The position numbers were made by a program, and so were the translations under genes. Under the pieces are notes generated by a model, which was not told the origin of the DNA, did no database searches, and saw nothing but the letters and a program-made list of their open reading frames with translations. 39,178 nucleotides of DNA from a virus (Duplodnaviria > Caudoviricetes), in IMG/VR virus record IMGVR_UViG_3300033405_000040, positions 1-39,178 of that record. One strand, given 5' to 3'. This document shows, piece by piece, positions 15,966-37,358 of this stretch; the stretch's first letter is position 1, and each line of letters opens with the position of its first letter.

Positions 15966-16915
15966 TTTTTTGCCGGGTCTACGTTATTCCGAAACCATTC
16001 AACGGTCTTTTCAATCCCGCTACCGTAATGGACTCTCGGTTCCCAGCCAAGCTTCTCTCGAGCTTTGGTGATGTCCGGACAACGTTGCTTCGGGTCGTCT
16101 TCAGGAAGAGGTTTGAAACAAATTTTCGGATTATTTCCAAAAGCAATCTGAACATCTGTAGCGACTGATAAGATAGAACGTTCGTCAGGATTACCAATAT
16201 TAATTACTGGAACAATTCTCGGAACATGGTCCATCTCGGACATGCAAATGAGACCTTGAACCGTATCAGTCACATAACAAAAACTGCGTGTTTGACTTCC
16301 ATCTCCATAAACGGTCAGACCTTCTCCTCGCATGCCTTGCATAATGAGATTCGGGAGAAGTCGACCGTCGTCATGCGCCATTCGAGGACCATATGTATTG
16401 AAAATCCGTGCGATGCGAACGCTAGTCCCATACTGTTGCGCCCATGAGACAGCAAGGGATTCACCCACCCGCTTGCCTTCATCATAGCAGGAACGAATCC
16501 CGACAGGATTCACATTGCCGAAATAAGTTTCAGGTTGGGGGTGAACTGTCGGATCTCCGTAGACTTCAGAAGTAGAAGCGATAACAATTCTCGAGCTCGC
16601 ATTCCTAGCACACTCCAATACGTTGAGAGTCCCGAGAACTGCTGTCCTAATCGTGTTAACAGGATTGCGTTGATATTGAACAGGACTAGCAGGACAAGCC
16701 AAATGGAAAATCACATCACATTCAAGATTCCAAGGTTCGCAAACGTCGTGTCGAAAGAATTCGAAATTAGATAATGGAAGCAAATGTTCAATATTAGCAC
16801 GCCTGGACGTGAACAAGTTGTCCATACACACAACATCAAATTCGAGTTCACATAACTTCTCGCAAAGATGACTCCCAATGAATCCAGCTCCACCCGTCAC
16901 TAGCGCTTTTGTCAT
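15962..16915 (-). CDS. uxs: UDP-glucuronate decarboxylase (UDP-xylose synthase) family SDR
   Basis: VTGGAGFIGSHL, HLACPASP, ASTSEVYGDP, GNVNPVGIRSCYDEGKR, RIFNTYGPRM, DDPKQRCPDI are all UXS-type motifs. Confidence 0.9.
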   Translation of the reverse strand: MTKALVTGGAGFIGSHLCEKLCELEFDVVCMDNLFTSRRANIEHLLPLSNFEFFRHDVCEPWNLECDVIFHLACPASPVQYQRNPVNTIRTAVLGTLNVLECARNASSRIVIASTSEVYGDPTVHPQPETYFGNVNPVGIRSCYDEGKRVGESLAVSWAQQYGTSVRIARIFNTYGPRMAHDDGRLLPNLIMQGMRGEGLTVYGDGSQTRSFCYVTDTVQGLICMSEMDHVPRIVPVINIGNPDERSILSVATDVQIAFGNNPKICFKPLPEDDPKQRCPDITKAREKLGWEPRVHYGSGIEKTVEWFRNNVDPAKK

Positions 16916-19900
16916 GACATGAAGCCCTTATATTGAGGGACAACCTTCAATGAAACATCTTGAATGACGTCCCGAATCATCTTATCCCATTCACGCGCCA
17001 GAGTCTCCCAACTAAAATGGTCTCTGGCGTAATCTTGAAGCTTGAGACGATCAGACTCGTTTTGTTCTCGCATGGCTGCAACAACTGCATCAATGAACTG
17101 GTTTTGATAATTTAGACTCAACCAATCTCCAGGGATCATAACTCCCCGAGAACCGACCGTCTCATTGAGTGCTGCAATAGGAGAAGTGACCATTCTCAAA
17201 CCAGCCGCATGAGCTTCCATTGCTGAAATACAAGAAGTTTCTGCGAACCAAGTTGGATAGGCCCAAACACCGCTCTTCAAATATTCTTCTGCGAGCTGAC
17301 CTTGAGGAACTCTTCCGTGGAAAGTAACTCCGGCCGACTCGTAGTCATGAAGCAACTTCTTTAGAGATGAAATAAGTATTTTCTGACCCTCGTCAGCACA
17401 AGCTTCCCAGGTCTGGAAGCCATAGAAAATATGCAATTCTGCGCCAGGGATTTTTTCTCTTACCCTTGGCCAAATTCGACAGGCCACTTCCATTCCTCGA
17501 TCGGGACTAGAACTATAGACAGCGCGATAAGGATTACGGGTTATATGTTTATCGAACCGCTTCAAATCAATCCCATTTCGAGTTTTGATCATTTGTGATG
17601 GGTGCAAATACGGATAAAATCCTAGGACATTTTGAAGATGCCAGTCCGATAGAACTAATACACGATCGATTTTAAGGGCTCTCTCATGAGTGAGACTCCC
17701 GCCACAGTGAATATCGTGAATCCAGCAAAACGTTACTTTCCTCGAAACATTGTGAGATACATCCACAGCTTCAGGCCTACGAGATGTAATCAATACGTCG
17801 CAGGTGATGTTACAATATTTAGAAGAATCAAGATACTGAACCCCGTCAAAATTCCCTTCCAAACCTTGCCGACAATCACCGTAAACCCGAATATGGTGGC
17901 CCATCCTGGCCAAATTACGAGCCATCTCAATAACGGCTGTCTCTGATCCACCAATCCCATTCTTTGTTGCTGTGTCGGGATTCCATGGTTCAACACCATG
18001 GCCCACATAGAAAATAATGTCGACCGGAGACGAAACAGGTTCAATGACTGGCTTCGGTACTAATTTCAAGGTGGGTCGATCACTGATTTTATTTTCCGAA
18101 CGACGCCCACGAGCACAGATTGAAGCCTGAGTAGGAATAGGGACGGGTTGCTCTGATTGATCAATCAGAACTTCGATCCCTTCAACATCAACAAGCCCGG
18201 CACTTCGAAGGTCATCTAAAACTTCTGACAAGATCGGAGCGCGAACGTGTTCGCGCGGAGATTCAACATCCCACTTTGGGTGAAATACTACTGAAGCTCC
18301 TTGACACCATGAGCCTCGAGGAGTGCTCAAAACTAGAGTGCCGCCCGGCTTCACATAAGCCGCAGCTCTCTTAATAAGAGCAACTGGGTCTTCTACATGC
18401 TCATAAACTTCGAGCAATGAAACCACATCAAACTGTGTCGGGAAATTTGCTGGCAGTGGATCTTCACCAAGAAGTGCTGCAATATGCTGGGCTCCGGTAT
18501 TAAATTCTCTAGCCTTTGCATTGGCGATTTCCACCATGCGTGTTGACATATCGACACCCCAAGCTTTAATCCCCATCAAGCCAGCGCGATTTGTAATCCA
18601 TCCATCCAAACTTCCAATATCCAAAAGTGTACCAGTTCGGTATTCATTTAGAACATTGAACAAGTATCTGTATCTCGCATATTGACCATGCGGAGGACGA
18701 ATTTCTTCAGGAATCGGGATGGCTTCGCACTCAGCGCCATAATTCTGATAAATAGAACGATATGCTTCAGGGTGATCAATGTGATTAAGCATGACGTCGA
18801 TTTTGCGACGCATCTCTTTAAGATCCGGATGATTTCGAATGCTCCAAGGAGCTGATTTCAGTAATGAACGAGCGGCCAACACCTCATCATGTCGAAGCAA
18901 CTGGACCCACAGCAATTTGATCATTCCAAGAGTTGTCCACCCAGGAAGCTCGATAGGATCGAAAACTTTTGGAATATCTTTCGGGATGATAAATCCAGAC
19001 GGTGAAAGCGTCATTGTTGGATTTGAAGCTAACATATGATCAGGAAGAGGTGATGCTGACACAGAAGGGGCCGGCAAGGAATTTGATGGTAGCTTTCCAG
19101 CGATCGCATCCAAAACAACCTTTTGAGTTTCAGGTGTCACGGCTCCGATATCAATGAGCTCGAGGAATCCCTCTTCTACTTTTTTACGGGCCAAATGCTT
19201 TACATAAAGCTGTCGATTTTGCTGACATCCTGCATCGTCAGGTCGGACACTCAATGCTTTATTTGCACTTTCAAGAGCTCCAACCACGTCACCAACATGA
19301 TTCAACGCCAAATTCAGGAATTTGTGAATTTCAAATTCTCTCTCGAGTGGGTTGATGAACAGCATGGTCTTGGTGGGAGGAAGCGCAAGACCTGCACGGA
19401 AAAAGTGAATTGATCGTTCCCAATTTCTTCTCTCGTGTGGACCCTTTCGCTGCGCCAGAAAGTAAAAACTTCTGCCTAGTGAAAAATAGGCTTCAGCCCA
19501 ACCTTCACGCACAGTGAGAGCTTTAGTAGCCCATTCCACTGCATGATCATAGTCACCTGTCGATGAATAATGATCTGCAATCTTTAAACAAGCTAGGAAA
19601 CGTTCATCGTCCCAACCAGACAATTCAACATATCGCTTGTGAAATTTAATGGCGTTGTCAATATCACCGGCATTGCCGTATTCGAGTCCGAGATAATAAA
19701 GCATCCGGACGTCTTCTTCGCCCTTCTGCGCATACCACTTCTTCAGAATGCGAAGATTTCGTCCTGATTCAATCTTCTTCTTTGTGAAATTCCGTCGATG
19801 AACGATCCGGACTTTCTCATATTCCGGTTTCATGACCGGTTGTTCGGGGTTCAAGATCTCATGAACGGGCCCCAACCAGCGAAATGCTGATTTCGGGCCT

Positions 19901-20331
19901 GATGCAAGTCTTTCCCGATAATGGCGACAAGTTACGTTCCCGAGATCGTCATGAGCGTATTCGTATGGAAAGAATACGAGTGTCGGAAAATTATTACGAA
20001 TCTTGTCTTGTTCGATAATGATCGAACTCAAATGTTCCGCCCCTACGACTTCATCATCACCATCGATCCACATGGTCCATGGCTGAGTAGCCATTTCATA
20101 ACTACGCTGACGAGCCATTGAAAAATTCTCGATCAAACCATCTACATCATTGCAGGCGGTAAAGACCTCGAATTTATCAGCATATTTCCGGGCAATATCC
20201 GGAGTGGAATCCGTAGAGCCCGTATCTACAATATTGATTTCCGCGACATGCGGACGAATGGATCGAAGACAAGCTTCTAGCTGTGCCTCCTCGTTTTTGA
20301 CGATGAGGCACAGCGAGACAGGCGCGGTCAT
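16912..20331 (-). CDS. Fusion: GT2 glycosyltransferase + TPR + SAM methyltransferase + GT4 glycosyltransferase
   Basis: SLCLIVKNEE...VDTGSTD...WIDGDD (SunS-like GT2); TPR helices (YYLGLEY, AEAYFSLG); LLDIGS...EVYEHVEDP...KPGG (class I MTase); GGSE...YSSSPDRG...ETSCISAMEA (GT4). Confidence 0.9.
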   Translation of the reverse strand: MTAPVSLCLIVKNEEAQLEACLRSIRPHVAEINIVDTGSTDSTPDIARKYADKFEVFTACNDVDGLIENFSMARQRSYEMATQPWTMWIDGDDEVVGAEHLSSIIIEQDKIRNNFPTLVFFPYEYAHDDLGNVTCRHYRERLASGPKSAFRWLGPVHEILNPEQPVMKPEYEKVRIVHRRNFTKKKIESGRNLRILKKWYAQKGEEDVRMLYYLGLEYGNAGDIDNAIKFHKRYVELSGWDDERFLACLKIADHYSSTGDYDHAVEWATKALTVREGWAEAYFSLGRSFYFLAQRKGPHERRNWERSIHFFRAGLALPPTKTMLFINPLEREFEIHKFLNLALNHVGDVVGALESANKALSVRPDDAGCQQNRQLYVKHLARKKVEEGFLELIDIGAVTPETQKVVLDAIAGKLPSNSLPAPSVSASPLPDHMLASNPTMTLSPSGFIIPKDIPKVFDPIELPGWTTLGMIKLLWVQLLRHDEVLAARSLLKSAPWSIRNHPDLKEMRRKIDVMLNHIDHPEAYRSIYQNYGAECEAIPIPEEIRPPHGQYARYRYLFNVLNEYRTGTLLDIGSLDGWITNRAGLMGIKAWGVDMSTRMVEIANAKAREFNTGAQHIAALLGEDPLPANFPTQFDVVSLLEVYEHVEDPVALIKRAAAYVKPGGTLVLSTPRGSWCQGASVVFHPKWDVESPREHVRAPILSEVLDDLRSAGLVDVEGIEVLIDQSEQPVPIPTQASICARGRRSENKISDRPTLKLVPKPVIEPVSSPVDIIFYVGHGVEPWNPDTATKNGIGGSETAVIEMARNLARMGHHIRVYGDCRQGLEGNFDGVQYLDSSKYCNITCDVLITSRRPEAVDVSHNVSRKVTFCWIHDIHCGGSLTHERALKIDRVLVLSDWHLQNVLGFYPYLHPSQMIKTRNGIDLKRFDKHITRNPYRAVYSSSPDRGMEVACRIWPRVREKIPGAELHIFYGFQTWEACADEGQKILISSLKKLLHDYESAGVTFHGRVPQGQLAEEYLKSGVWAYPTWFAETSCISAMEAHAAGLRMVTSPIAALNETVGSRGVMIPGDWLSLNYQNQFIDAVVAAMREQNESDRLKLQDYARDHFSWETLAREWDKMIRDVIQDVSLKVVPQYKGFMS

Positions 20332-20365: not shown

Positions 20366-21316
20366 TCAGGTCATTGCGTCGTAGGAGGAATTCGGGGAAG
20401 CCAGGTTGTACTCTTCGATGGCTTGACCACGGAAGGAACAATTCGTGTTCGGACTAGCCGTGAAAGTGCTGGAGATCGTCGTATGATTGGACTCCATTGC
20501 GGCGATGGCTCCAGAAAGTCCCGTCCAATACGTCGTCCCAGACGCTCCATTACTATCCGTGAGTGAAGCGCAGAAAAGACCGCAGTCCAAACCAAGTCCA
20601 GTTTGGCTCGCATAGTTAAACCAAGGTTGGAACATCGAGACCTGATTATTCCCGCTTCCACTGACAACGTTTGAATAGCATTGAACGACACAGAAGTCGG
20701 CCACGCTCATGAGATTGAGTCCCTCGAGCTGGGTAGGGCCACCATCATAGGAGAAAGAGAGAGCCGCAGATCCGGAATTGGCGAGCCACCAAGTCGGACA
20801 GAATCCAACAGGGATGTGCAAGATACGCTTCATAGCGACCATAAGATCGCACATACCGATGGGCTCAGTAACCGTGTACCCAGGAACAGTCCAGTATTCA
20901 GCGTCAAGACAAACGCCATCAAATTGTGCATTTGGATACGTCGAGTTATTTACGCAATACGCTTGATACTGGGCAATATTCTTGACGATATTACCCATAA
21001 CCCACTGCTGGTTATGGCCCCAATCTGTATTACCACAGAGAGCCATCACACGAATGCCACTTGCGTGGGCGTAGTGAATGAACTTTTGAAAAGTTTGTGC
21101 ATTGGTAGTAGACCAGTTTCCACCACCAAGATATCCCCACATATCGAGGAAGAGAAGATTCACACCTTTCGACGAACACCAGTTGAGTAGATTCTGCATC
21201 TTTGTATCAGATGCCAATGAATCTTGGGTGGATCCCGCAGTCCCGATCCATACGAACATGGCCCGGTCGAGGTTGCTATTCGGAGGTGTCGGAATGGTGA
21301 CAGCGCTTACAGTCAT
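20366..21316 (-). CDS. GH18-like TIM-barrel glycoside hydrolase-like protein
   Basis: AHASGIRVMALCG and FDGVCLDAEY resemble the GH18 FDGxDxDxEY motif. Start moved to ATG 21316 (AAGGAG RBS, removes overlap with the upstream gene). Confidence 0.55.
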   Translation of the reverse strand: MTVSAVTIPTPPNSNLDRAMFVWIGTAGSTQDSLASDTKMQNLLNWCSSKGVNLLFLDMWGYLGGGNWSTTNAQTFQKFIHYAHASGIRVMALCGNTDWGHNQQWVMGNIVKNIAQYQAYCVNNSTYPNAQFDGVCLDAEYWTVPGYTVTEPIGMCDLMVAMKRILHIPVGFCPTWWLANSGSAALSFSYDGGPTQLEGLNLMSVADFCVVQCYSNVVSGSGNNQVSMFQPWFNYASQTGLGLDCGLFCASLTDSNGASGTTYWTGLSGAIAAMESNHTTISSTFTASPNTNCSFRGQAIEEYNLASPNSSYDAMT

Positions 21317-21353
21317 TGAATGCTCCTTTAGTAAATTCCAATATAGAGGTAAA

Positions 21354-22385
21354 TTAAAATTGCATGTATTCAAATCCAGCAACAGCAGTTGAAGTTGTTG
21401 CCACAACTGGTCTTTCTACCAGAAAGATGAAATCTGGGCCAGGAACTCCAAGTGGAATTTCAAATTCATGATCCCAAGTGCCGGCTGCTACGTGCATAAT
21501 AGTAACACCAATTTGCTGCTGAGGGACGTTTGTAGATAACGGATTACCCGTGTGATTTATGTTCGTTTGACCAGCAGCGACAGTTGCACCAGCAGTAATG
21601 CTCAGAATGTAGCAAGTAACGCCGGATGGAACATAATGGTGAGCCCAAAAAGTTTGATTATCACTTGGAGCGATGCTCCCCCAAACAGAGCCTCCGCCTG
21701 CTGTAGCTGTGAAAATTTGAATAGTTCCAACATTGCCACCACCAGAACCTACTGTAGCTACTGCCATGCTTTCAATGAAAGCAATATTTGTCCCAACTGT
21801 GTTAACTGCTGTAGTCCCATTTAAGGTCACAGTCTCTGAGTGGGATGCAAAACTTGTATCAAGATAATTAATTGTAACAGTTTGCGCACCAGTACCTGCA
21901 GCTGTATCAGCTGCATTAGTAGAACTGATACTGCGTTGAGAATTTGTGCCTTGAGGAGTATAAGTTGTAGCTCGAATAGCTTTACCACCAGTAGAATTTG
22001 TCCCTGTGTAACCTTGAGCGCGTCCTGTTAATGCACCAGGTAAAAGACCGAGCATTGCAGCGTTTTGAAACGGTGTTTCAATAGGATTCCCAAACTGATC
22101 CGTTCTTTGAATTCGAGCATTGGCTGATGACTGATAAGTAGTCTGGAAAGTACTCAAATCGGAATTGTTTTGAGTTTGAGAGTATCCGCCCGCAATGACA
22201 CCATCAGGAACTGTTCCGTCCCACATAATGGCTGAGTAAACAATTGGCCCGTCAAAAGCGAAGACAGTTGTGATCGTGCTGTCATCTGTATATTGCATCA
22301 ATAACTTTTTCGACGTAACAACAGATAAGAAATTGGTCCAAGTCGATGAAATTACGGTAAAACCGCTGCCAAATGCTACGGACAT
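21354..22385 (-). CDS. Thr/Gly-rich beta-structured putative virion protein
   Basis: 343 aa; C-terminal ~200 aa paralogous to the C-terminus of 22392..24089. Confidence 0.7.
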   Translation of the reverse strand: MSVAFGSGFTVISSTWTNFLSVVTSKKLLMQYTDDSTITTVFAFDGPIVYSAIMWDGTVPDGVIAGGYSQTQNNSDLSTFQTTYQSSANARIQRTDQFGNPIETPFQNAAMLGLLPGALTGRAQGYTGTNSTGGKAIRATTYTPQGTNSQRSISSTNAADTAAGTGAQTVTINYLDTSFASHSETVTLNGTTAVNTVGTNIAFIESMAVATVGSGGGNVGTIQIFTATAGGGSVWGSIAPSDNQTFWAHHYVPSGVTCYILSITAGATVAAGQTNINHTGNPLSTNVPQQQIGVTIMHVAAGTWDHEFEIPLGVPGPDFIFLVERPVVATTSTAVAGFEYMQF

Positions 22386-22391
22386 ACTTCC

Positions 22392-24089
22392 TCAACTCTC
22401 TTGATAGAAATCAAAAGATAGCCAATAAGTGGATGTTGTAGCTTGATCAGGAGTCACATATCCATTAATTCTAGACGGACCGGTCACTTGAAGAGGCGTG
22501 CCATAAGTCCTCAAGAAAGAAGGTTGAGATGCATTACCGCCTCCACCATTTCGTACAAAATCTGAAATTTGGACTTCTACGGCTCCTGTAACTCCAATAG
22601 ATCTAGATGTACAGAAGAACGATGCACCAGCATTATCATTAGCTCCTGCCACCAACCCAGTAATATAACAAGTATCACCCGTTGGAACATAATGATGACA
22701 CCAAAAAGTTTGATTAGCACCAATCGCAATAGTTCCAATAGCAGTTCCTCCACCAGCTGTGGCCGTCCATAAAGTAATGGTTCCAGCGTTAGAAGCTCCA
22801 CTACCAACTTGAGAGACAGTGATACTCTCAATATAGCACATAGTAGTGCTAACTGTGTTTACAGCTGTAGTTCCATTAAGAGTAATAGTTTCACTATTTG
22901 GACCTGCACCCGTAGAATCAAACCACACAATCGTAACTTTTTGAGCCCCTGTACCAGCGCCTGTGTCAGCAGCACTAGTAGAACTAACGCTTCTTTGAGC
23001 TCCAGTAGTTTGCTCATTGTAAGCAGTGGAACCAACGAAATTTTTCGTATTAGTAGTTAGTGCAGCAAAACCATTAGCAAAACCGGCAAGAGCAGCCAAT
23101 GAAGAAGCAGGAGATGTAATAAGTCTCCCTTGAGAGTCAACCGCTACTGCAATGAGTGTAGTTCCATTATAAGAACCTCCAACCAAAGCAGTGGATGGAG
23201 GCATGGCACCGTTAGTCGGTCCGTCAAATAAGGTAGATGGATCGGTGCGTGTAGTAGCTCTAACGGTAATATTTGCTGTTCCGGACGTATAAGCAGAAAC
23301 GCGAACACGTGTGATATTTGAACCACCTACTCCAACGATAGTTGCACTAGTTGCGGCGTTGGCAGAACTAAATACGATAGAAGAAACTTTCCCAGTAGTT
23401 GGAGTATCGAAATAAGTCGAACTCCATGTGGTTCCACCATCGAAAGAAACTTCAGGGACAATCGTTCCAATGAGAGTTCCAGCCGCAAGTTGGAAACCGA
23501 CTGTCAAAAGACCGGGATGCGTAAGAGATACCGCAGCATTGAGAGCTCCTAAGGCTCCTGTCGCGGTAACATCTGCAACCCCAGGTGTAGGAGAACCAGG
23601 TGAAAGTGCCACCACAAGGGCTTGATCAGTAGACGCAGCTGGAGTGCTTGCAGCTTTAACAGCTGCTGGTCCATTCACTCCATCTGTCAAAAGAGTGGTG
23701 GCTACTTTAGCCGTCAAAGTTGCGTATACTTGAGTAAAAGTTGGAGTAGCCGAGCCACCAATAGTCCAACTTACTTTAATAGATCCACCATAACTCGAGA
23801 GAAGAGTAATCCGTTGAATACCAATAGCATTAATGACTGTGCTCGAAACTGAAGTCCCGATTACAGTCGCACCATCCCCCGGATCAACTTCTTGAATCGT
23901 ATATTGAAGAGTCGGAAGTGTGCCAGTCGGAGCAGCTTTAACATTGATGAAAAGACTGACCTCCGCAGCTCCGTAACCTGTAAAAACATTTGAGCCGCTC
24001 GCAGTAATAGTCGCGTTCGATTGAACCGACTGTTGATTCGGATCATGAAAGATCGGTCCAGGAGCGGCTAGAACAACGGCAGTCATCAA
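22392..24089 (-). CDS. Multidomain Thr/Gly/Ala-rich putative virion (fibre-associated) protein
   Basis: 565 aa, ATGA-coupled to the collagen gene; beta-rich domains ([20 protein letters not shown]) plus the shared C-terminal domain. Confidence 0.7.
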
Positions 24090-27000
24090 ATATTCCTAGT
24101 TTCAGTGTAGGACGTGAGTGTATTACCAGTATATGTGTAAACGATAGTCACTTCTCCAATCACGATTGTTCCAGTAGAATCGTAAATCTTTCGGACTTCT
24201 TGCGTGAGCTTATTACCTGTGTATGTGTAGTCAATGGATTTAATCAGATTTCCAGTTGAAGCATTCGTCCAGGTTTCTCGAGTAAGTTTGTTGCCGGTAT
24301 AAGTTGCAGCATAGTTATTTGTAACCCAAACTGGGTCGTTACATGCAAGCAGAACGTCATTAAAATATGACGGACCAGTTGCACCTTGCGGACCAGTTGC
24401 TCCAGTAACCCCCGGAGATCCTTGTGTTCCTTGAGGTCCGGTCACTCCCGTTGAACCTCGAGGCCCGGTAGGTCCGGTGGCACCAGTAACACCAGGCGAG
24501 CCTTGTGTACCTTGAGGTCCGGTCGCGCCAGTAGCTCCAGGAGATCCTTGTGTGCCTTGAGGACCACCAAAAGGACCTGTAGCACCGCGGGCACCAGTTA
24601 CTCCGGTAGCACCTTGAGGACCGGTGACTCCAGTAACTCCAGGAGATCCTTGTGTTCCTTGGGGTCCAGTCGCTCCAGTGACTCCACGAGCACCAGTGGG
24701 TCCAGTCGCTCCAGTGACACCTGGTGATCCTTGTGGACCCATGGCACCTTGTGGCCCAGTAGGTCCGGTTGCACCAGTTACTCCCGGGGAACCCTGTGTA
24801 CCTTGCGGTCCAGTTGGTCCAGTAACACCAGGTGATCCTTGTGTGCCCTGTGTGCCTTGCGGGCCCGTAGGACCAGTTGAACCAGTGATTCCTTGCGGTC
24901 CCGTCGATCCTTGCGGTCCCGTAGCCCCAGTTAGTCCTGTGACCCCTGGAGATCCCTGTGTTCCTTGCGGACCAGTCGCACCGGCTGGACCAATCGGACC
25001 CGTTGCACCTGTGACTCCTGGCGAACCCTGAGTGCCCTGTGGACCTGTGGGTCCAGTCGCACCTTGTGAACCAGTAACTCCGGTGATGCCTGGCGACCCT
25101 TGAGTGCCTTGAGGACCTGTGGCTCCTTGCGGTCCTGTTGGTCCGGTCGCACCAGTTACTCCTGGAGATCCTTGTGGACCGGTAACACCTGGTGATCCTT
25201 GTGTTCCCTGAGGACCAGTTGCTCCCGTGACTCCAGTAACTCCCGGAGAGCCCTGTGTTCCTTGAGGACCGGTAGCGCCTTGTGGCCCCGTGGGTCCAGT
25301 GGCGCCGGTAACACCAGGTGATCCTTGCGTGCCTTGAGTTCCCTGAGGACCCGTTGAACCCTTAGGACCAGTTGGACCTGTGGCTCCAGTAACTCCGGTG
25401 ACGCCCGGTGAACCTTGAGGTCCAGTTGGTCCAGTTGCACCTGTTACCCCGGGCGATCCTTGTGTGCCTTGAACTCCTGTAGCCCCTTGAGGACCGGTGG
25501 CACCTGTAACTCCAGGGCTACCTTGTGGTCCAGTTGGACCAGTTGGACCAGTCGCTCCAGTGACACCCGGGCTACCTTGTGGTCCGGTTGCACCAGTAAA
25601 TCCAGTTACTCCAGGTGAACCTTGCGTTCCTTGAGGACCAGTAGGCCCAGTTGCTCCAGTCAGACCGGTAACACCAGGCGAACCTTGTGGCCCTGTAAAC
25701 CCGGTCGCTCCTTGCGGGCCCGTAGGACCAGTTGCACCAGTTACTCCGGGTGATCCTTGTGTTCCTTGAGGACCAGTAGCACCTTGCGGCCCAGTTGGAC
25801 CTGTGACACCCGTGACACCCGTGACGCCAGGAGATCCTTGAGTGCCTTGTGGCCCTGTAGATCCAGTGACTCCAGTAACTCCTGGAGAGCCTTGCGTCCC
25901 TTGAGGTCCTGTTGCTCCCTGAGGACCAGTTGGTCCAGTCGCACCAGTAACACCGGGCGATCCTTGCGGTCCAGTCGGGCCAGTCGCACCCGTGACACCA
26001 GTTATTCCAGGCGATCCTTGTGCGCCTTGAGGTCCTGTAGCGCCTTGCGGACCCGTTGGACCGGTCGCGCCTGTCAGACCAGTAACACCTGGCGATCCTT
26101 GTGTTCCTTGTGGACCAGTTGCACCTTGCGGTCCGGTGGGCCCGGTTGCACCCTGCGGACCTGTAGGCCCGGTCGCACCAGTAACACCCGGTGATCCCTG
26201 GGTTCCCTGAGGACCTGTCGCGCCAGTAACTCCGGTGATTCCAGGGGAACCTTGAGTGCCCTGCGGTCCTGTTGCTCCCTGTGGTCCGGTCGCTCCCGTG
26301 ACTCCAGTAACACCTGGAGAACCTTGGGTGCCTTGTGGTCCTGTTGCTCCAACTGGTCCAGTCGGTCCGGTGGGTCCAGTGATACCTGGACTGCCTTGCG
26401 TACCTTGCGGACCAGTTACACCAGTAACTCCGGGCGATCCTTGAGTGCCCTGCGGTCCTGTTGCTCCCTGAGGACCAGTAGGTCCGGTGGCTCCGGTGGC
26501 TCCAGGGGATCCTTGTGGCCCTGTCGCTCCGGTGACACCAGTGACCCCGGGCGATCCTTGTGAACCTTGAGGACCAGTTGCTCCCTGTGGTCCTGTAGGT
26601 CCAGTAGCACCGGTTGCACCCTGGGGGCCCGTCGCGCCTGTAACTCCGGGAGATCCCTGTGTGCCTTGTGGTCCTGTAGATCCAGTTAGTCCTGTGACTC
26701 CTGGGGAACCCTGTGTTCCTTGTGGTCCAGTTGCTCCTTGAGGACCAGTTGGGCCTGTGGCTCCAGTTGCGCCTTGTGGGCCGGTAGAACCCGTGACACC
26801 AGGAGATCCTTGTGTTCCTTGGGGGCCAGTCGCACCAGTGACTCCGGTGACACCAGGACTACCCTGCGTTCCTTGAGGACCTGTAGCACCAGTTGTCCCT
26901 TGCGGTCCCGTAGGTCCGGTGGCTCCGGTAACACCTGGAGAACCTTGGGTGCCTTGCGGACCAGTTGGACCTTGCGGACCAGTCGGTCCAGTCGCTCCAG

Positions 27001-30000
27001 TTAGGCCAGTAACACCAGGCGAGCCTTGTGTGCCTTGAGGTCCGGTGGGCCCGGTTGCACCTGTGGCTCCAGGAGAGCCCTGAGGACCTGTAGGACCAGT
27101 CGCACCCGTGACACCGGGCGATCCTTGCGGTCCAGTCGCACCTGTCAGACCGGTGACACCTGGCGATCCCTGCGTGCCTTGAGGACCGGTTGCACCTGTA
27201 ATCCCTTGCGGACCAGTTGCACCTGTAATCCCTTGCGGACCAGTTGCACCTGTAATCCCTTGCGGACCAGTCGGTCCAGTGGCCCCGGTGACACCGGGTG
27301 AGCCCTGGGTTCCCTGCGGTCCTGTAAATCCGGTCGCACCTTGTGGTCCGGTCGCACCAGTAACTCCAGGAGAACCTTGGGTACCCTGTGGACCTGTTAC
27401 TCCGGTGACTCCTGGAGATCCTTGCGGTCCCGTCGAACCTTGCGGACCCGTTGGGCCGGTCGCGCCTGTAACTCCGGGACTTCCTTGTGGTCCAGTTGCA
27501 CCTTGAGGACCAGTGGGCCCGGTTGCACCCGTGAGACCGGTGACACCAGGAGACCCTTGCGTTCCTTGAGGACCAGTGGAACCTGTGACGCCTTGTGGTC
27601 CAGTCGCTCCTGTTACTCCAGGTGATCCTTGAGGACCGGTCGCACCCGTGACACCCGGAGATCCTTGCGTGCCCTGGGGACCGGTTGGACCTGTTGCGCC
27701 TGTGACTCCGGGAGATCCCTGCGTTCCTTGAGGACCTGTTGGTCCTGTTGCGCCTGTAACTCCGGTGATTCCGGGGGAACCCTGCGTTCCTTGGGGACCT
27801 GTGGCTCCTTGCGGACCAGTGGGGCCCGTAGCTCCAGTAGTTCCAGTAACCCCCGGAGATCCCTGTGTTCCTTGCGGTCCTGTCGATCCTTGAGGACCGG
27901 TAGGTCCGGTGGCACCTGTGGCGCCTTGTGATCCAGTTGCACCAGTAACTCCTGGTGATCCTTGAGGGCCAGTTGGTCCAGTAACACCAGTAACACCCGG
28001 TGATCCTTGTGTACCTTGAGGACCAGTCGCGCCCGTTACTCCAGGTGATCCCTGAGGACCGGTGGCTCCTGTTACTCCCGTGATGCCTGGTGATCCTTGA
28101 GTGCCTTGCGGTCCAGTTGCACCTTGTGGCCCAGTAGGACCAGTTGCACCGGTAACTCCGTCAGCTCCAGTTGCTCCAGTAACGCCTGGCGATCCCTGGG
28201 TGCCTTGCGGTCCAGTGAAACCTGTTACTCCAGGAGATCCTTGCGTGCCTTGTGGTCCTGTCGGGCCGGTTGCGCCCGTGACACCTGGGGATCCTTGTGG
28301 ACCAGTTGCACCTGTGACGCCATCTACACCAGTAGCTCCTTGCGGGCCTGTGGCACCAGTAACACCCGGGCTACCTTGTGGACCCGTGGCGCCGGTCAAT
28401 CCAGTAACACCAGGCGAGCCTTGTGTGCCCTGAGGTCCGGTTGCACCTTGAGGACCAGTGGGTCCGGTTGCACCAGTAACTCCATCAGCTCCTGTCGCGC
28501 CTGTTACTCCGGGAGATCCTTGTGGACCAGTCGGGCCAGTGGCACCAGTTACTCCAGGAGATCCCTGTGTTCCTTGAGGACCTGTGGCTCCTTGAGGACC
28601 AGTTGGACCTGTCGCTCCGGTGACACCATCCGCACCTGTAGCGCCTTGAGCTCCAGTCGCTCCTGTAATCCCAGGCGAACCTTGTGTTCCTTGTGTTCCT
28701 TGTGGACCGGTAGGCCCGGTTGCACCAGTGGTACCCGGACTGCCCTGAGGGCCAGTTGCTCCATCAGGACCAGTCGCACCAGTGACACCAGGCGATCCTT
28801 GAGGACCAGTAGGCCCCGTCGCGCCTGTTATTCCAGGTGATCCCTGAGTGCCTTGAGGACCAGTCGGACCAGTAGCTCCTGTAACTCCGTCTGCACCAGT
28901 TGCACCCTGAGGTCCCGTCGCACCTGTGACGCCCGGGGATCCTTGAGTACCCTGTGGACCGGTGGGCCCAGTAGCACCGGTCGCGCCATCGGCACCAGTT
29001 GCACCCTGTGGACCAGTGGCTCCTGTAACTCCATCAGATCCAGTGGCGCCTTGAGGTCCGGTCGCACCAGTTACACCAGGTGATCCCTGAGTACCTTGCG
29101 GTCCGGTCGGCCCTGTGGCACCTGTTACTCCATCAGCTCCAGTTGCGCCCTGAGGGCCAGTAGGACCAGTTGCTCCGGTAACGCCTTGCGGACCAGTCGC
29201 TCCAGTAACTCCATCCGCTCCAGTAACTCCAGTGACTCCTGGTGATCCCTGAGGACCCGTAGGGCCTGTTGCTCCAGTAACACCAGGTGATCCTTGAGTG
29301 CCCTGTGGACCTGTGGCACCAGTTACTCCGTCTGCACCAGTAGCACCCTGAGGACCAGTTGCTCCCGTAATGCCTGGTGATCCCTGAGGACCGGTAGGGC
29401 CTGTCGCGCCTGTTACTCCGTCTGCACCAGTTGCACCTGTTACCCCGGGAGAACCTTGCGTCCCCTGTGGACCAGTTGGACCTGTGGCACCAGTAATTCC
29501 GGGACTACCTTGTGGACCAGTTGCTCCGGTAACACCGTCAGAACCAGTTGCTCCTTGTGAACCCGTAGCTCCCTGTGGTCCTGTTGGACCCGTGGCCCCT
29601 GTGACACCATCCGCACCAGTTGCGCCTTGCGGACCAGTCGGTCCGGTTGCTCCAGTTACTCCATCAACTCCCGTTGCACCTTGAGGACCAGTCGCTCCAG
29701 TGACACCTGGTGACCCCTGTGGACCAGTAGATCCCTGCGGACCGGTAGGTCCGGTTGCTCCGGTTACTCCATCTGCACCAGTAGCTCCCTGAGGACCTGT
29801 AGGGCCAGTTGCACCAGTAGTTCCATCAGCTCCAGTCGCACCTTGTGGACCAGTCGCTCCAGTAATGCCAGGAGAGCCTTGTGTGCCTTGGGGACCAGTG
29901 GGGCCTGTCGCTCCTTGAGGTCCAGTGAATCCTGTGACACCAGGAGATCCCTGTGGACCCGTAGCCCCATCCGCACCAGTTGCTCCAGTTACTCCATCTG

Positions 30001-32983
30001 CACCTGTTGCACCTTGTGGCCCAGTGGCACCAGTTACTCCATCAGCCCCTGTGGCTCCGTCAGGACCTGTAGCCCCTGTTACTCCATCAGTTCCAGTTGC
30101 ACCTTGCGGTCCAGTTGGTCCTGTGGCTCCAGTAACTCCATCAGGCCCGGTTGCTCCTGTGACTCCGGGACTACCTTGAGGACCTGTTGCGCCTTGCGGA
30201 CCCGTAGCGCCTGTTACTCCGTCTGCACCAGTCGGACCTTGTGGACCTGTCGGTCCTGTGGCCCCGGTGGCACCATCAATTCCAGTTGCTCCTTGAGGTC
30301 CTGTGGCTCCAGTAATTCCAGGTGATCCCTGTGTACCTTGTGGTCCTGTAGCTCCGGTAACTCCATCTGCTCCAGTAGCACCTGTGACACCCGGAGATCC
30401 CTGTGGGCCAGTTGCGCCAGTTGCGCCTTGGGGTCCAGTGGCACCAGTTACTCCGTCTGCACCAGTTGCTCCATCTGCACCAGTTGCTCCGGTGATTCCA
30501 GGTGAACCTTGAGTGCCTTGTGGTCCAGTTGCACCAGTTACTCCATCAACCCCGGTTGCACCTTGTGGGCCCGTAGGTCCGGTTGCACCAGTTACTCCAT
30601 CTGCACCAGTTGCTCCAGTTACTCCATCGACACCAGTGGCCCCTTGGGGTCCAGTTGAACCAGTTACACCATCGACACCAGTAGCACCTTGTGGCCCAGT
30701 TGCGCCAGTTACCCCTGGTGATCCTTGAGGACCTGTAGCCCCCGTTACACCGTTTGAACCTGTCGCCCCTTGAGGACCGGTAGGTCCAGTTACTCCAGTA
30801 ACACCATCGGCACCAGTTGCTCCCTGTGAGCCTGTAGGTCCAGTAGCACCGGTTGCACCTTGTGGGCCAGTCGCGCCAGTAGCTCCAGGAGATCCTTGTG
30901 TGCCTTGAGGACCTGTCGCGCCTTGGGGTCCAGTGACACCAGTTACTCCATCAATTCCAGTTGCACCTTGGGGTCCAGTCGCGCCCGTTACACCTGGGCT
31001 GCCTTGCGGACCCGTAGCTCCTGTTGGACCAGTGGCTCCGGTAACACCTTGAGGACCAGTGGCTCCGGTAACACCGGGCGATCCTTGTGGACCAGTCGTG
31101 CCAGGTGATCCTTGCGTTCCTTGGGGGCCAGTAGCTCCTGTGACTCCAGTTGCTCCAGGAGAGCCCTGTGTTCCTTGTGCTCCAGTCGGACCAGGAGATC
31201 CTTGCGGTCCAGTTGCACCAGTAACTCCATCAGCTCCATTCGCACCGGTCGGGCCTTGAGCACCGGTCGGGCCTTGAGGACCTGGAAGTCCAGTAGCTCC
31301 TCGAGGACCTGGCGTACCTTGAATACCTTGCGGTCCGGGTGGACCAGTAGGACCTGTCGCACCCGTAGGGCCTGTTGCGCCAGTTACTCCATCTGCACCA
31401 GTAGCGCCTTGTGGACCTGTGGCTCCTTGTGGACCGGTCGGGCCAGTTGGCCCGGTAGCGCCTGTAATCCCTTGTGGACCCGTAGCACCTTGCGGCCCAG
31501 TAGCACCCTGCGGCCCAGTTGGACCGGTTGCACCAGTAACTCCTTGTGGGCCAGTCGCTCCTTGAGGACCAGTTGGACCAGTAACGCCTTGTGGCCCAGT
31601 AGGTCCGGTTGCACCAGTTACTCCCGGGGAACCCTGTGTACCTTGCGGTCCAGTTGGTCCAGTAACACCAGGTGATCCTTGTGTGCCCTGTGTGCCTTGA
31701 GGACCAGTAGGACCAGTTGAACCAGTGATTCCTTGCGGTCCCGTCGATCCTTGCGGTCCCGTAGCGCCTATTGGACCGGTCGCGCCTGTAACTCCTTGAG
31801 GACCGGTCGCGCCTGTAACTCCGGGAGATCCTTGTGGACCAGTTGGACCTTGCGGTCCCGTAGCACCAGTGGGTCCAGTCGCGCCTTGCGGCCCGGTCGC
31901 CCCCGTGGGTCCAGTTGCGCCCTGAGGACCCGTGGGTCCAGTTGCGCCCGTTACACCTTGAAGTCCGGTCGCACCTTGTGGACCAGTCGCACCTTGTGGA
32001 CCTGTTGGTCCGGTCACTCCGGTGACACCCGTCGCGCCCTGAAGTCCCGTCGCGCCCTGTGGGCCAGTAACACCAGGAGAACCCTGCGGTCCGGTCGTTC
32101 CGGGGCTTCCTTGGGCACCCGTAGCTCCAGTGACTCCTTGCGGACCAGTTGCGCCTTGAGGACCAGTTGCGCCTGTTACTCCAGGGTTGCCTTGAGGGCC
32201 TGGTAGTCCTGTGGCGCCTCGGGGGCCAGGAGTCCCTTGGATACCTTGTGGCCCCGGAGGACCCGTGGGTCCAGTTGGACCAGTAGCACCGGTAACTCCA
32301 GGCGATCCTTGCGTCCCTTCAGGACCAGTTGCACCTTCAGGACCAGTTGCACCAGCGGGGCCTGTGGGTCCAGTCGCACCCGTAACGCCTTGAAGGCCCG
32401 TCGCTCCTTGAGGTCCAGTTGGACCAGTCTCTCCAATAGAACCGGTTACTCCTTGCGGACCAGTAGGGCCTGTAGCACCCGTCACACCTTGCGGGCCAGT
32501 AGCGCCGGTAACTCCCGGAGATCCTTGAGGTCCAACTGGACCAGGAGAACCTTGCGTTCCTTGAGCTCCTGTTGAACCCTGAGGCCCAGTGTTTCCTTGT
32601 GGCCCAGTAGCTCCAGTGACCCCTTGAGCTCCTGTAACACCGGTCACACCATCGGCGCCCGTTGAACCTTGAGGTCCAGTCGCTCCAGTTGCTCCCTGCG
32701 GACCAGTGGGGCCCGTAGCTCCCGTAACACCTTGCGAACCAGTTGCACCTTCAGGACCAGTTGAACCTTGAGGTCCAGTCGGTCCTGTCGCACCAGTTAC
32801 TCCATCAACTCCAGTTGCACCCTGAGGTCCAGTCGCTCCTTGAGGTCCAGTTGCACCGGTAACCCCGTCAACTCCGGTCGGGCCCTGAATACCTGTCGGC
32901 CCTGGTGATCCTTGCGGGCCTTCAGGGCCTGTAGCGCCGGTCACTCCAGAACGACAAGGTGCTCCTCGAGGATTATCGATCAT
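24086..32983 (-). CDS. Giant Thr-rich collagen-like protein (2965 aa)
   Basis: 12-aa N-terminus, about 2860 aa of Gly-X-Y ([18 protein letters not shown]) with one visible interruption (GPF-G-GPQ), and a 93-aa C-terminal domain with three TYTGNxLT repeats. Confidence 0.95.
24747..24925. repeat. 179-bp direct repeat, copy A (partner 31587-31765)
   Basis: By-eye alignment gives 176/179 identity at an offset of 6840 bp. Confidence 0.85.
27183..27271. repeat. 27-bp tandem repeat, about 3.3 copies, in the collagen gene
   Basis: GGACC(A/G)GTTGCACCTGTAATCCCTTGC, encoding (GPQGITGAT)n on the minus strand. Confidence 0.9.
31587..31765. repeat. 179-bp direct repeat, copy B (partner 24747-24925)
   Basis: See copy A. 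Confidence 0.85.
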
Positions 32984-32986
32984 GAG

Positions 32987-34264
32987 TCAGCTGGAAGCCG
33001 TTAGAGTGATACCAAGTGTGCCTGGTGCTCCAGGAACTCCTTTCTCTGAGGCAATCAGTCTGACTGTGGTGCTCCCACCGGGAATGGTGACGTAAAGAAT
33101 GAAACTAATGGGATTATTGTCTTGAGGCGCAGGACCATCCAAATCTTGCAGAAACATGTTTTGAGTGGAGTATGGAGAAGAAATTGTGATGCAAGAATCA
33201 ACAAGAGTCTCCTGAGTCTCTTCAACACCGTTTCCCCACAGGATATAGAAAGTCGGGAAGCCCCCTGGAGCTCCACGAGTGTAGGTGATATAGAAAGTCA
33301 CATGATGCACCCCGTGTGGAATCATGTAGGGCGGTTGACTGGTGACATTCCCACTCGGCGGCAGGATTTGAGTCAACAGATGGACGGTCCGTGGAATCTC
33401 AAACGGACAGCATGAACCACTTGGGGGAATTGGTGGCACAGGGATCGGAGGAATAACAGGCCCACATGGAGCCGGCGAGTATGAATTAAACGTAGGCCCG
33501 CAACCACAAGGCTCAGGTTCTGAACAATTAGAAAGAAATAATGGCGCCAGAATTACTGGAGCGCGAGAACACGGATCGAAGCAAGACGTGCCGCACAGAA
33601 CAGGCAAAAGTGGTGTGTAAGGGTTAGGAGGATTGATGACTGAGAAGCGCATCGATCTCGACTCGAGCGGCGAGTCAGAGCAAGCCATCCATTCCCAAGT
33701 GATAAGATAATCACCACTACAAACTGAGATATGCCATACGGCATAGTATTCACCAAGACATGCATTCACTGCATAAGTCTTGGGCGAAACGCACCGCCCC
33801 ACAGCATCATAAATTGTCCAGAAAACTGCAAAGGCGTTGATCGGCACGCCATCAGAGTTTTTCAAGAAAAGTGGCAGGTCACCACGTCGAGTCGTATAAC
33901 CGGACAAATATGTAAACTCGCCCGGCTTAGGAATGGCTTCCTCAGTGAGAGGCTGGCAGCCGTAACTCGAAGGATCGACTACGAAAAACTGTTCAGTAAA
34001 TCTGCGAGCAGGAAGCCCTGATTCTGGGCGAACTTCCCAGTCAATGCGATAATTTCCGTTTTTCGCGTTAGCAAACCAAGGGGCATAGTATTCACCCACT
34101 TTGGCTCGAATTGCTGGTAATCTTTTACCAGATGTCAATACTCCATCAGAAGCAAACACGGTCCAGAGGACCTCAAATGCATCTTGAGGATAGCCAGAGT
34201 CATTACTCAAGTAGAGCCTGAGGTCTCCTCTGGATAGCGCACTTCGAATGAGAAAGGCCGCCAT
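32987..34264 (-). CDS. Protein with two tandem Ig-like repeats, Cys/Pro-rich linker and C-terminal beta-domain
   Basis: RGDLxLxLxN...P.[DN]AF.V.WT...GEYYA.W...G.Y.I.WE occurs twice; linker PVLCGTSCFDPC...PCGCGP...GSCCP. Confidence 0.75.
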   Translation of the reverse strand: MAAFLIRSALSRGDLRLYLSNDSGYPQDAFEVLWTVFASDGVLTSGKRLPAIRAKVGEYYAPWFANAKNGNYRIDWEVRPESGLPARRFTEQFFVVDPSSYGCQPLTEEAIPKPGEFTYLSGYTTRRGDLPLFLKNSDGVPINAFAVFWTIYDAVGRCVSPKTYAVNACLGEYYAVWHISVCSGDYLITWEWMACSDSPLESRSMRFSVINPPNPYTPLLPVLCGTSCFDPCSRAPVILAPLFLSNCSEPEPCGCGPTFNSYSPAPCGPVIPPIPVPPIPPSGSCCPFEIPRTVHLLTQILPPSGNVTSQPPYMIPHGVHHVTFYITYTRGAPGGFPTFYILWGNGVEETQETLVDSCITISSPYSTQNMFLQDLDGPAPQDNNPISFILYVTIPGGSTTVRLIASEKGVPGAPGTLGITLTASS

Positions 34265-36521: not shown

Positions 36522-37358
36522 TCAAATACGACTTTGAATAGCACGAGCCGAACGTGCGCTACGAGAACCTCTCAATCGAGAACAAACACGACATTCTCGA
36601 GAACCTCTTGGATTAACATAAGTGTTATCTGGAGTGTATTCATGACCTCGGGAGCAATGAGTCTTAAACTTATTTAGACTAGCACCAGTTAATAGACCTG
36701 ATTGACACCGCTCACGAAAATTAGGATTTTCCCACAACTTCGCGTTATTAGATCGATATTCATCAGTCCACATCGCAGATGAAGATTTAGATCTCTTTGC
36801 TCGACTCTCAGGACGAGCAAAAGCTTCTTTCATTGCAGAAGCTGCATGGTTTTTAACTGCGGGATCAGAATACGCTTCTCGATTGGATGCAGTAACCTGC
36901 TGCCGGAATTCAGGATCATTCCAAAGAGATTGAGATCTTTGGGATCTTTCAGCAGATGTAATACTAGAATTTGCACGATCAAGATCTGCTAATCGCGCAG
37001 CTCGGAATTCAGGGTCATCCCAAGGATTCCGATGAATCGGATGAGGAATATGCGCACCACCCTTCGCGAGGTTGAATCCCTTCTCGGGATTCCTTGTATC
37101 ATAAAATTCAATCCAGCATTCTTCTGCGAGATTAGCGGTTTCCAAATCATCGCAATATGCAAGAATACGATGAATAAATGCATGTTTCCCATATTTACGA
37201 ATCGCAGCCCAAAAATGAGCGCAGCCCTTGCCCTTTTTGGCCTTAGCGTTGGAAACATGTTGATTCCAACGCTTCATCATTGTGAGCTTCGTAAGCCCGA
37301 TGTAACGGCGACCAGATTCAGTATGAATGTGGCAGTAAATAGTCCAGCGAGTTCCCAT
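36522..37358 (-). CDS. Free-standing GIY-YIG homing endonuclease with C-terminal zinc-binding module
   Basis: TIYCH...RRYIGLT...RW..H...AIRKYG...E..WI...GFNL..GG; helical W.[DN]P.FR repeats; KTHCSRGHEYTPDNTY...RECRVC. Confidence 0.85.
   Translation of the reverse strand: MGTRWTIYCHIHTESGRRYIGLTKLTMMKRWNQHVSNAKAKKGKGCAHFWAAIRKYGKHAFIHRILAYCDDLETANLAEECWIEFYDTRNPEKGFNLAKGGAHIPHPIHRNPWDDPEFRAARLADLDRANSSITSAERSQRSQSLWNDPEFRQQVTASNREAYSDPAVKNHAASAMKEAFARPESRAKRSKSSSAMWTDEYRSNNAKLWENPNFRERCQSGLLTGASLNKFKTHCSRGHEYTPDNTYVNPRGSRECRVCSRLRGSRSARSARAIQSRI

What the first reader, a model, noticed from the sequence alone, without database searches (positions are those of the whole stretch)
24086..32983. 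About 953 nearly uninterrupted Gly-X-Y triplets, predicting a roughly 0.8 micrometre triple helix
2965 aa minus a 12-aa N-terminus and a 93-aa C-terminus leaves 2860 aa, which equals 953 triplets plus the one extra Gly at GPF-G-GPQ. At about 0.286 nm per residue this is about 820 nm, nearly three times vertebrate type I collagen (338 triplets) and longer than most phage particles. It could be a host-search whisker, tether or spacer.
Basis: partly seen in the sequence, partly recalled or inferred. Interest (0 to 1): 0.8.

Follow-up and report, generated by a model that had tools for sequence, protein, structure and literature searches.

The report
Near-micrometre collagen fibre of jumbo phages
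A fragment of what is likely a jumbo phage from peat encodes 953 collagen triplets with a single one-residue break, predicted to form a 0.8-micrometre fibre that is likely anchored on the virus particle and likely stabilised by sugars added by neighbouring phage enzymes; relatives carry the same gene with 148 to 1,189 triplets.

Summary
Observation confirmed: ORF 24086-32983 (-), 2965 aa, has 953 Gly-X-Y triplets (931+22 around one extra Gly). Assembly inflation is unlikely: the longest exact repeat is 113 nt, codons are randomised between protein repeats, depth is single-copy, and contigs from four peat runs match. No long reads exist. In 10 of 10 other phage loci the same upstream gene is followed by a Thr-rich collagen with the same N-terminal motif. 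Complete ones hold 148-1189 triplets with five kinds of C-terminal tip. A complete, syntenic 436-kb phage has 774 uninterrupted triplets and the same tip. The gene lies between head and neck/sheath genes, beside a GT2-TPR glycosyltransferase cluster. The helix has no KGE/KGD salt bridges, 1.7% charge and 54% Thr at Y, and no prolyl hydroxylase was found in relatives. Best reading: an N-anchored, Thr-glycosylated virion fibre of variable length with a swappable tip, used as a long-reach tether. It is the longest unbroken run I found, not a record overall: a relative has 1189 triplets, and about 2000 interrupted triplets are reported in prokaryotes. The scan noted collagen-plus-glycosyltransferase pairs before on other DNA. 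Helix, glycan and location are untested.

The parts
24086..32983 (-). Giant collagen-like gene, 2965 aa, 257 kDa, pI about 4
   Evidence: PF01391 1338.6 bits
32948..32983 (-). 12-aa N-terminus with the Asn-Pro-(Arg/Gln/Ile)-Gly motif; inferred virion anchor
   Evidence: motif present in 10 of 10 orthologous loci; anchoring is inference
24368..32947 (-). Gly-X-Y stalk, aa 13-2872, 953 triplets; Thr 54% and Gln 28% at Y, Pro 31% at X, 1 Lys, no KGE/KGD
24566..24568 (-). The single extra Gly (aa 2806); a 44-nt exact copy of aa 691-705 begins right after it, a possible duplication scar
24089..24367 (-). 93-aa C-terminal tip: one helix plus a six-stranded beta-meander, YD-repeat-like; a mobile C-terminal module
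   Evidence: model pLDDT 92.9; Z 8.6 to DUF3836 and 7.9 to teneurin; 238 relatives, 8 of 150 listed carry collagen
32987..34264 (-). 425-aa gene directly upstream in all orthologous loci: two Ig-like domains, a Cys/Pro-rich linker and a jelly-roll-like domain; candidate docking partner (untested)
   Evidence: model pLDDT 62.5; fold matches; Ig repeats related to the 10405-11304 protein
16912..20331 (-). GT2-TPR-methyltransferase-GT4 fusion, 1139 aa; inferred initiating protein O-glycosyltransferase
   Evidence: Pfam; GmaR E 4e-16 and SunS E 1e-6; in 6 of 8 related viral records
15962..16915 (-). NDP-sugar dehydratase/epimerase (SDR family)
13717..15965 (-). Two GT4-type glycosyltransferases
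12194..13705 (-). B12-binding radical SAM enzyme closing the sugar cluster
   Evidence: also in G001 and G003
20366..24089 (-). Three genes between collagen and glycosyltransferase; two are paralogous, Thr/Gly/Ser-rich proteins matching phrog_8198 (function unknown)
   Evidence: conserved in G003

Best explanation
The gene encodes a 953-triplet threonine-rich collagen-like chain that is predicted to form a homotrimeric fibre about 0.8 micrometres long, likely fixed to the head or neck of a jumbo phage particle by its conserved N-terminal motif, likely stabilised by sugars put on its threonines by the phage's own neighbouring glycosyltransferases, and likely serving as a long-reach tether whose swappable C-terminal tip makes first contact. 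Shown: the sequence, its periodicity, its composition, the conserved locus and motif, the variation in length and tip, and the enzyme cluster. Inferred: triple helix (about 0.85), virion location (about 0.8), N-terminus proximal at head or neck (about 0.5), Thr glycosylation by the GT2-TPR enzyme (about 0.7), tethering role (about 0.5). Length appears to evolve by internal duplication and by recombination between tandem collagen paralogues, which also exchanges tips.
For: (1) G003 (436 kb, terminal repeats) is syntenic with the whole window and has terminase, portal, protease and major head genes upstream; neck-region, sheath-like and tail genes lie downstream. Separate collagens lie near its tail-fibre genes. 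(2) 10 of 10 orthologous loci with downstream sequence have a Thr-rich collagen with the same N-terminal motif; 7 complete genes including the window carry 5 kinds of C-terminus and 148-1189 triplets. This is the anchor-stalk-tip pattern of phage fibres (established knowledge). In G001 our N-terminus and our tip sit on two adjacent collagen genes. (3) Codons are randomised while triplet order is conserved (bigram cosine 0.90 to G003), and 774-932 triplet runs have no break, which implies selection on Gly periodicity. (4) No KGE/KGD and 1.7% charged residues; no 2OG-Fe(II) oxygenase found by PF13640 in 5 of 5 records, or by PF13759 and PF03171 in 2 of 2 complete genomes. (Gly-Pro-Thr)10 is a random coil unless its threonines are galactosylated (PMC11923368, passages). 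(5) The GT2-TPR gene lies 3.8 kb downstream; its closest natural solved relatives are the protein glycosyltransferases GmaR and SunS. C. difficile SgtA, also GT-A plus TPR, glycosylates Thr in the collagen region of the adjacent BclA3 (PMC7157674, passages). The enzyme is in 6 of 8 related viral records; the two without it end inside the collagen gene. The distant relative LR745208 shows neither collagen nor enzyme (one case).
Against: No virion, helix or glycan has been observed; host and phage are uncultured. Gene position is weak evidence for the attachment site, and about 35 kb separate the collagen from the major head gene in G003. The tip domain is on a collagen in only 8 of 150 listed relatives and has no known ligand. 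Only 2 of 9 more distant GT2-TPR hits examined (2 of 7 plasmid, 0 of 2 phage) have a Gly-X-Y run within 4-6 kb, so the enzyme family is not collagen-specific, and the phage has other Thr-rich proteins it could modify. Thr at Y is ordinary for bacterial collagens (48% in Gram-positives) and is also explained by hydration networks without sugar (PMC8968730, passages). A host hydroxylase is not excluded. I did not compare the enzyme with SgtA directly.
Confidence: 0.5

Rival explanations
1. Same glycosylated fibre, but attached to the tail sheath or baseplate (whisker or very long tail fibre) rather than head or neck.
For: PHROG hits of the repeat are labelled tail fibre. Hair-like fibres on sheaths are reported for jumbo phages Y3, CBB, 121Q and Atu_ph07 (PMC13282480, PMC7824862; passages). 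The sheath-like gene is 22 kb downstream in the same gene string.
Against: The PHROG hits reflect only the repeat. In G003 the tail-fibre region lies about 75 kb away and has its own collagen gene.
Confidence: 0.2
2. The fibre is a passive glycan coat or spacer (shielding, drag, anti-aggregation, retention on peat particles) with no specific receptor role; the tip only nucleates folding.
For: The stalk is almost uncharged with 518 Thr at Y. One orthologue (L039) ends in a tail of about a dozen residues. Length varies eightfold.
Against: Distinct folded tips are swapped in repeatedly, as in receptor-binding fibres. A coat would not need unbroken 774-932 triplet runs.
Confidence: 0.13
3. The chain does not form a continuous triple helix but is an extended or disordered mucin-like glycoprotein.
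For: It lacks both known sugar-independent stabilisers (hydroxyproline, KGE/KGD) and has only 2 Gly-Pro-Pro triplets.
Against: Gly at every third position over 2860 residues with randomised codons has no known purpose outside a triple helix.
Confidence: 0.07
4. A non-virion protein: displayed on the infected cell or used as an intracellular scaffold during assembly.
For: Phage sugar clusters are proposed to remodel host surfaces (PMC7824862, passage). An actin-like gene lies in the same string.
Against: The 12-aa N-terminus has no hydrophobic signal stretch and the C-terminus no membrane anchor. The gene lies in the virion gene block.
Confidence: 0.06
5. Assembly artefact: the length is inflated, or two tandem collagen genes were joined through their repeats.
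For: G001 has our N-terminus and our tip on two genes summing to 3006 aa. No contig spans the gene, and two repeats are interleaved.
Against: The longest exact repeat is 113 nt; depth is single-copy with no joints at 100% identity; two further studies hold matching contigs; G003 independently has the one-gene architecture with 774 triplets and a longest exact repeat of 50 nt.
Confidence: 0.04

Closest known systems
C. difficile BclA3 with SgtA, and Bacillus BclA (spore exosporium collagen-like glycoproteins; PMC7157674)
   Same: Gly-X-Thr-rich stalk; neighbouring GT-A plus TPR enzyme; no hydroxyproline
   Different: Phage virion gene block, not a spore; 2965 aa against 678 aa for BclA3; the enzyme is fused to methyltransferase and GT4 domains; unrelated end domains
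Collagen-like phage fibres: SPP1 gp12 capsid spike (PMC7602432) and E. coli prophage EPclA (PMC3368898, listing only; described in PMC11923368)
   Same: Phage-encoded Gly-X-Y protein, trimeric surface fibre
   Different: EPclA is described as much shorter than mammalian collagen and about 22% charged; this stalk is 1.7% charged; no homology outside the repeat was tested
Long flexible head fibres of phages 7-7-1 and phiCbK; hair-like fibres of jumbo phages (PMC12796354, PMC13282480, PMC7824862)
   Same: Proposed role as first-contact tether at a distance
   Different: 7-7-1 fibres measured 88-114 nm and their protein is unknown; the word collagen does not occur in these three papers
Vent-worm cuticle collagen stabilised by glycosylated Thr (Mann 1996, Bann 2000, as cited in PMC11923368; originals not read)
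   Same: Thr replaces hydroxyproline at Y; sugar-dependent helix
   Different: Animal extracellular matrix; no sequence relationship claimed
Very long collagen-like proteins: Trichodesmium (383 uninterrupted triplets, PMC2443231), prokaryotic up to 2000 interrupted triplets (PMC11923368 citing Qiu et al., not held), Coccomyxa over 4000 aa total repeat (10.1101/2021.10.08.463732)
   Same: Longer than vertebrate fibrillar collagen
   Different: Those totals include interruptions or are of unstated continuity; here 931-932 triplets are unbroken, in a phage

Membership tests
Collagen-like proteins (PF01391) | Gly at every third residue over a long stretch | tested here: met
   953 triplets, one break; 1338.6 bits against cut-off 27.2
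Collagen-like proteins (PF01391) | Forms a triple helix (CD, melting, EM) | not testable with these tools
   needs bench work
Collagen-like proteins (PF01391) | Flanking trimerisation domain | tested here: inconclusive
   the C-domain folds as a beta-meander; the complex job gave no answer (see Tried and rejected)
BclA/BclA3-SgtA glycosylated collagen system | Thr dominant at Y | tested here: met
   54%
BclA/BclA3-SgtA glycosylated collagen system | Neighbouring GT-A plus TPR glycosyltransferase | tested here: met
   16912-20331, PF00535 plus TPR; 3.8 kb downstream rather than adjacent
BclA/BclA3-SgtA glycosylated collagen system | Sequence orthology of the enzyme to SgtA | not tested
   no SgtA sequence came from a tool; nearest solved natural relatives GmaR and SunS
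BclA/BclA3-SgtA glycosylated collagen system | O-linked sugar on stalk Thr | not testable with these tools
   needs MS or an in vitro assay
BclA/BclA3-SgtA glycosylated collagen system | Spore exosporium protein of a Bacillota bacterium | tested here: not met
   phage record in a virion gene block: works like BclA, is not a BclA
Salt-bridge-clamped collagens (model of PMC11923368; Scl2, EPclA) | KGE/KGD triplets and high charge | tested here: not met
   0 KGE/KGD, 1 Lys, 1.7% charged; 0-1 such triplets in 11 related chains
Metazoan fibrillar collagen | C-terminal COLFI domain, Pro-rich Y position | tested here: not met
   no Pfam hit on the C-domain; Pro at Y 11%
Phage head/neck fibre (SPP1 gp12, 7-7-1 capsid fibre type) | Present on the virion head or collar | not testable with these tools
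   gene order only
YD/RHS-repeat beta-meander (for the tip) | Antiparallel meander matching YD shells | tested here: inconclusive
   Z 8.6 (rmsd 2.5, 77 aligned) to DUF3836, Z 7.9 (3.0, 74) to teneurin; Foldseek best E 0.01; no Pfam hit

The most novel reading that the evidence does not exclude
A clade of roughly 400-kb soil and sediment phages carries single-gene collagen tethers up to about a micrometre long, several times the capsid diameter. These fold and stay folded with neither hydroxyproline nor salt bridges, solely through phage-made threonine glycans, and their reach is tuned eightfold by repeat gain and loss while tips are swapped. The window holds the longest unbroken collagen run in any virus.
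Probability: 0.3. Interest if true: 0.8.

Novelty: new variant of a known kind. Interest (0 to 1): 0.57.

Why it matters
PMC11923368 calls it an open question how long prokaryotic and viral collagens fold and stay folded, and proposes Lys-Asp/Glu salt bridges. This family has 774-932 unbroken triplets and essentially none, so it is a clean natural test of the alternative, Thr glycosylation, with the candidate enzyme in the same gene string. If displayed, the fibre would match the longest known phage tail (about 875 nm, cited in PMC12338748) from one gene. The natural series of 148-1189 triplets lets reach be related to habitat. It may also help explain why such phages are lost on filters (inference). 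The parts are each known, and the scan has seen the collagen-enzyme pairing often, so the novelty is scale, continuity and the locus series.

Tried and rejected
Trimer prediction for the 93-aa tip (3 copies, alignment A1): no answer, score 0.01 against a mark of 0.42; not evidence either way. No RNA holder listed among sequencing runs. Host prediction: two scans of species genomes found no relative; the host is unknown, and OmpA and transglycosylase genes in G003 only hint at a Gram-negative host. A collection-wide DNA census of long Gly-X-Y runs could not be made, so the ranking rests on 163 listed proteins (the best 120 of 5720 hits plus 43 new ones from the best 120 of 623). Their longest run is 393 and none totals 600 triplets, but these searches missed G003 and G004 too, so they under-sample pure collagens. 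A search for proteins longer than 5189 aa was not possible. PF03237 found no terminase in 5 records, whereas PHROGs did in G003, so the loose genome search can miss genes; this also weakens the hydroxylase negatives. The tip domain was not found in G004-G008. The upstream protein has no family hit, only generic Ig and jelly-roll folds. No solved relative for the 10405-11304 or sheath-like proteins. Moraphages (PMC12619734, abstract and passages) rejected as the clade: up to 307 kb and analysed by PolB, whereas G003 is 436 kb with PolA. Paper searches: 'phage + head fiber + collagen + glycosylat + jumbo' gave 0 papers; 'collagen-like + jumbo phage + fiber' gave 3 and 'huge phage + collagen' 14, none describing this locus in the listings or passages seen. 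Qiu et al. 2023, the source of the 2000-triplet figure, is not held. A word search of the PMC11923368 supplements gave no length table (two files were cut and one unreadable). bioRxiv supplements are closed, so the continuity of the Coccomyxa repeat is unchecked.
Full report
Observation. The ORF at 24086-32983 (minus strand) is 2965 aa without internal stops. Residues 13-2872 are Gly-X-Y with one extra Gly at 2806: 953 triplets, parsed as 931+22 or 932+21. Six triplets make up 85% of the stalk (GAT 223, GPQ 186, GVT 148, GSP 97, GPT 90, GTQ 63). Y is Thr in 54% and Gln in 28%, X is Pro in 31%, charged residues are 1.7%, and there is one Lys and no KGE/KGD. At 0.286 nm per residue (recalled) the helix would be 818 nm. 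The periodicity is far beyond chance (991 matches against 22.8 in shuffles).

Is the length real? The window has only 5 exact repeats of 31 nt or more, the longest 113 nt. Identical protein repeats use different codons: 0.375 codon identity against 0.347 expected. Five public runs, all peat metagenomes from five studies, hold the stretch (four with 84-99% of its words, one with 20%). Contigs from the 4 runs laid match with 0-1 differences in the listed pieces. In X1 and X2 the pieces break only at those repeats, and X2 shows single-copy depth and no joints at 100% identity. X1 and X2 may be the source of the window; X3 and X4 are other studies with patchier cover. No piece spans the gene. A 179-nt repeat (three mismatches) and a 44-nt repeat are interleaved, so 31-mer contigs cannot fix the internal order. 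The total is unaffected, and the longest run would be about 780 in the alternative order (my arithmetic). Reads of 150 nt would resolve both repeats, but I could not see the read length.

Context. The window is a whole 39-kb contig classed as a virus record. Searching with the gene just upstream (32987-34264) gave 13 loci. I dropped L042 (the window itself), L046 (duplicate of L037) and L043 (ends inside that gene). In the remaining 10 of 10, the next gene is a Thr-rich collagen beginning with the same Asn-Pro-(Arg/Gln/Ile)-Gly motif. Six are complete: 581 aa/148 triplets (G002), 848/223 (G006), 1897/537 (G001), 2061/419 (G008), 2424/774 unbroken (G003) and 3960/1189 with a longest run of 775 (G004); four are cut by contig ends. 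G003 is a complete 436-kb genome syntenic with the whole window. It has terminase, portal, head protease and major head genes upstream, then the collagen, the sugar cluster, neck-region and sheath-like genes, and much further on the tail genes. The window is therefore very likely a piece of a jumbo tailed phage. G001 and G002 each hold six or more long collagen ORFs.

Anatomy. The N-terminal motif is constant, while the seven complete genes end in five kinds of C-terminus. Ours and G003's is a 93-aa helix plus six-stranded meander (pLDDT 92.9), resembling DUF3836 and YD-repeat shells at borderline Z. It belongs to a family of 238 representatives, mostly at the C-terminus of unrelated small proteins, with collagen in 8 of the 150 listed. 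In G001 our N-terminus is on one collagen gene and our tip on the next, which suggests tip exchange by recombination through the repeats (inference). A constant anchor, variable stalk and swappable tip is the usual plan of phage fibres (established knowledge), so I read the N-terminus as proximal. The upstream protein has two Ig-like domains related to the neck-region protein at 10405-11304 and a jelly-roll-like domain. It is a candidate docking partner, untested.

Stability. PMC11923368 (abstract and passages) argues that long collagens fold through KGE/KGD salt bridges and notes that (Gly-Pro-Thr)10 is a coil until its threonines are galactosylated. This stalk has no such bridges, nor do 11 related chains (0-1 each). 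No prolyl-hydroxylase family rang in relatives (0 of 5 records for PF13640, 0 of 2 complete genomes for PF13759 and PF03171), though that search missed a terminase. Beginning 3.8 kb downstream lie a GT2-TPR-methyltransferase-GT4 fusion, an NDP-sugar dehydratase, two GT4 enzymes and a B12 radical SAM enzyme. The GT2-TPR part matches the protein glycosyltransferases GmaR (E 4e-16) and SunS (E 1e-6) among solved structures. It has the domain plan of SgtA, which adds O-GlcNAc to Thr of the BclA3 collagen region (PMC7157674, passages). It is present in 6 of 8 related viral records; the other two end inside the collagen gene. The more distant LR745208 shares actin-like, neck-region and sheath-like genes but shows neither collagen nor enzyme. 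Against: of 9 distant hits examined (7 of the 20 listed plasmid hits, 2 of 13 phage hits) only 2 have a collagen nearby. Thr-rich Y positions are also normal in bacterial collagens and are attributed to hydration networks as well (PMC8968730, passages).

How long is long? Among 163 long collagen-domain proteins returned by two searches, the longest unbroken run is 393 and none totals 600 triplets, but those searches also missed G003 and G004, so this is no census. In print: 383 unbroken triplets in Trichodesmium (PMC2443231, passages), up to 2000 interrupted triplets in prokaryotes (PMC11923368, citing a review not held), and over 4000 aa of summed repeat in Coccomyxa (10.1101/2021.10.08.463732, passages). 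So the window has the longest unbroken run I saw, is second to G004 in total within its own clade, and is not an overall record.

Mechanism and odds. Most likely three chains zip into a triple helix that is decorated on Thr by the phage's enzymes, docked by the N-terminus on the head or neck, and projecting a tip up to 0.8 micrometres away for first contact. Capsid fibres of phages 7-7-1 and phiCbK act this way at about 0.1 micrometre for 7-7-1 (PMC12796354, passages). Joint confidence is 0.5; attachment to the tail (0.2) and a passive coat (0.13) are the main rivals. Earlier notes of this scan describe collagen-plus-glycosyltransferase pairs in at least eight findings on other genomes (AI notes, not support). 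None matched this locus by place or sequence, and the searches named under Tried and rejected found no paper on it. Verdict: real, a new variant of a known kind, notable for scale and as a test of sugar-dependent collagen folding; interest 0.57.

Noticed in passing
window 4198-5253 (-): Volactin-like actin homologue (PF25216, E 2e-67) among neck-region and sheath-like genes; conserved in G001, G002, G003, G006 (65-77%) and in huge phages LR745208 and LR756511.
   Followed up: partly
window 34718-36220 (+): AAA ATPase most like the bacterial proteasome ATPase ARC/Mpa (TIGR03689, 301.9 bits, under the 504.75 cut-off), on the opposite strand; also near this locus in G003.
   Followed up: partly
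G004:C1:199684-211566 (L069): Orthologous collagen of 3960 aa, 1189 triplets; the first 1041 are broken only by 1-2 residues, then a 251-aa domain and 148 more: about 0.9-1.0 micrometre.
   Followed up: partly
window 24089-24367 (-): The tip is an unnamed mobile C-terminal module: 238 representatives, usually ending the protein, on many unrelated N-termini.
   Followed up: partly
window 24368-32947: Strict triplet grammar (GTQ followed by GSP 93%, GSP by GVT 76%, GPT by GPQ 76%) shared across the clade although codons are randomised; possibly a glycosylation-site spacing code.
   Followed up: partly
G003:C1:83006-85609 (L051): Major vault protein homologue in a phage (PF11978, PF17795); G003 also has OmpA, transglycosylase, RtcB, DnaJ and sigma-70 genes.
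   Followed up: no
window 3-2054 (-): N-terminal part of a protein that is 1557 aa in G003, sheath-like only by language-model features; unusually large for a sheath.
   Followed up: partly
window 36522-37358 (-): GIY-YIG homing endonuclease with many paralogues scattered through this locus in relatives.
   Followed up: no
L001:11276-16969: The G001 orthologue has a 407-nt exact internal repeat, so its length is less secure than the window's.
   Followed up: no
window 12194-13705 (-): B12-dependent radical SAM enzyme at the end of the sugar cluster, 85% identical in G003; could methylate a sugar (untested).
   Followed up: no
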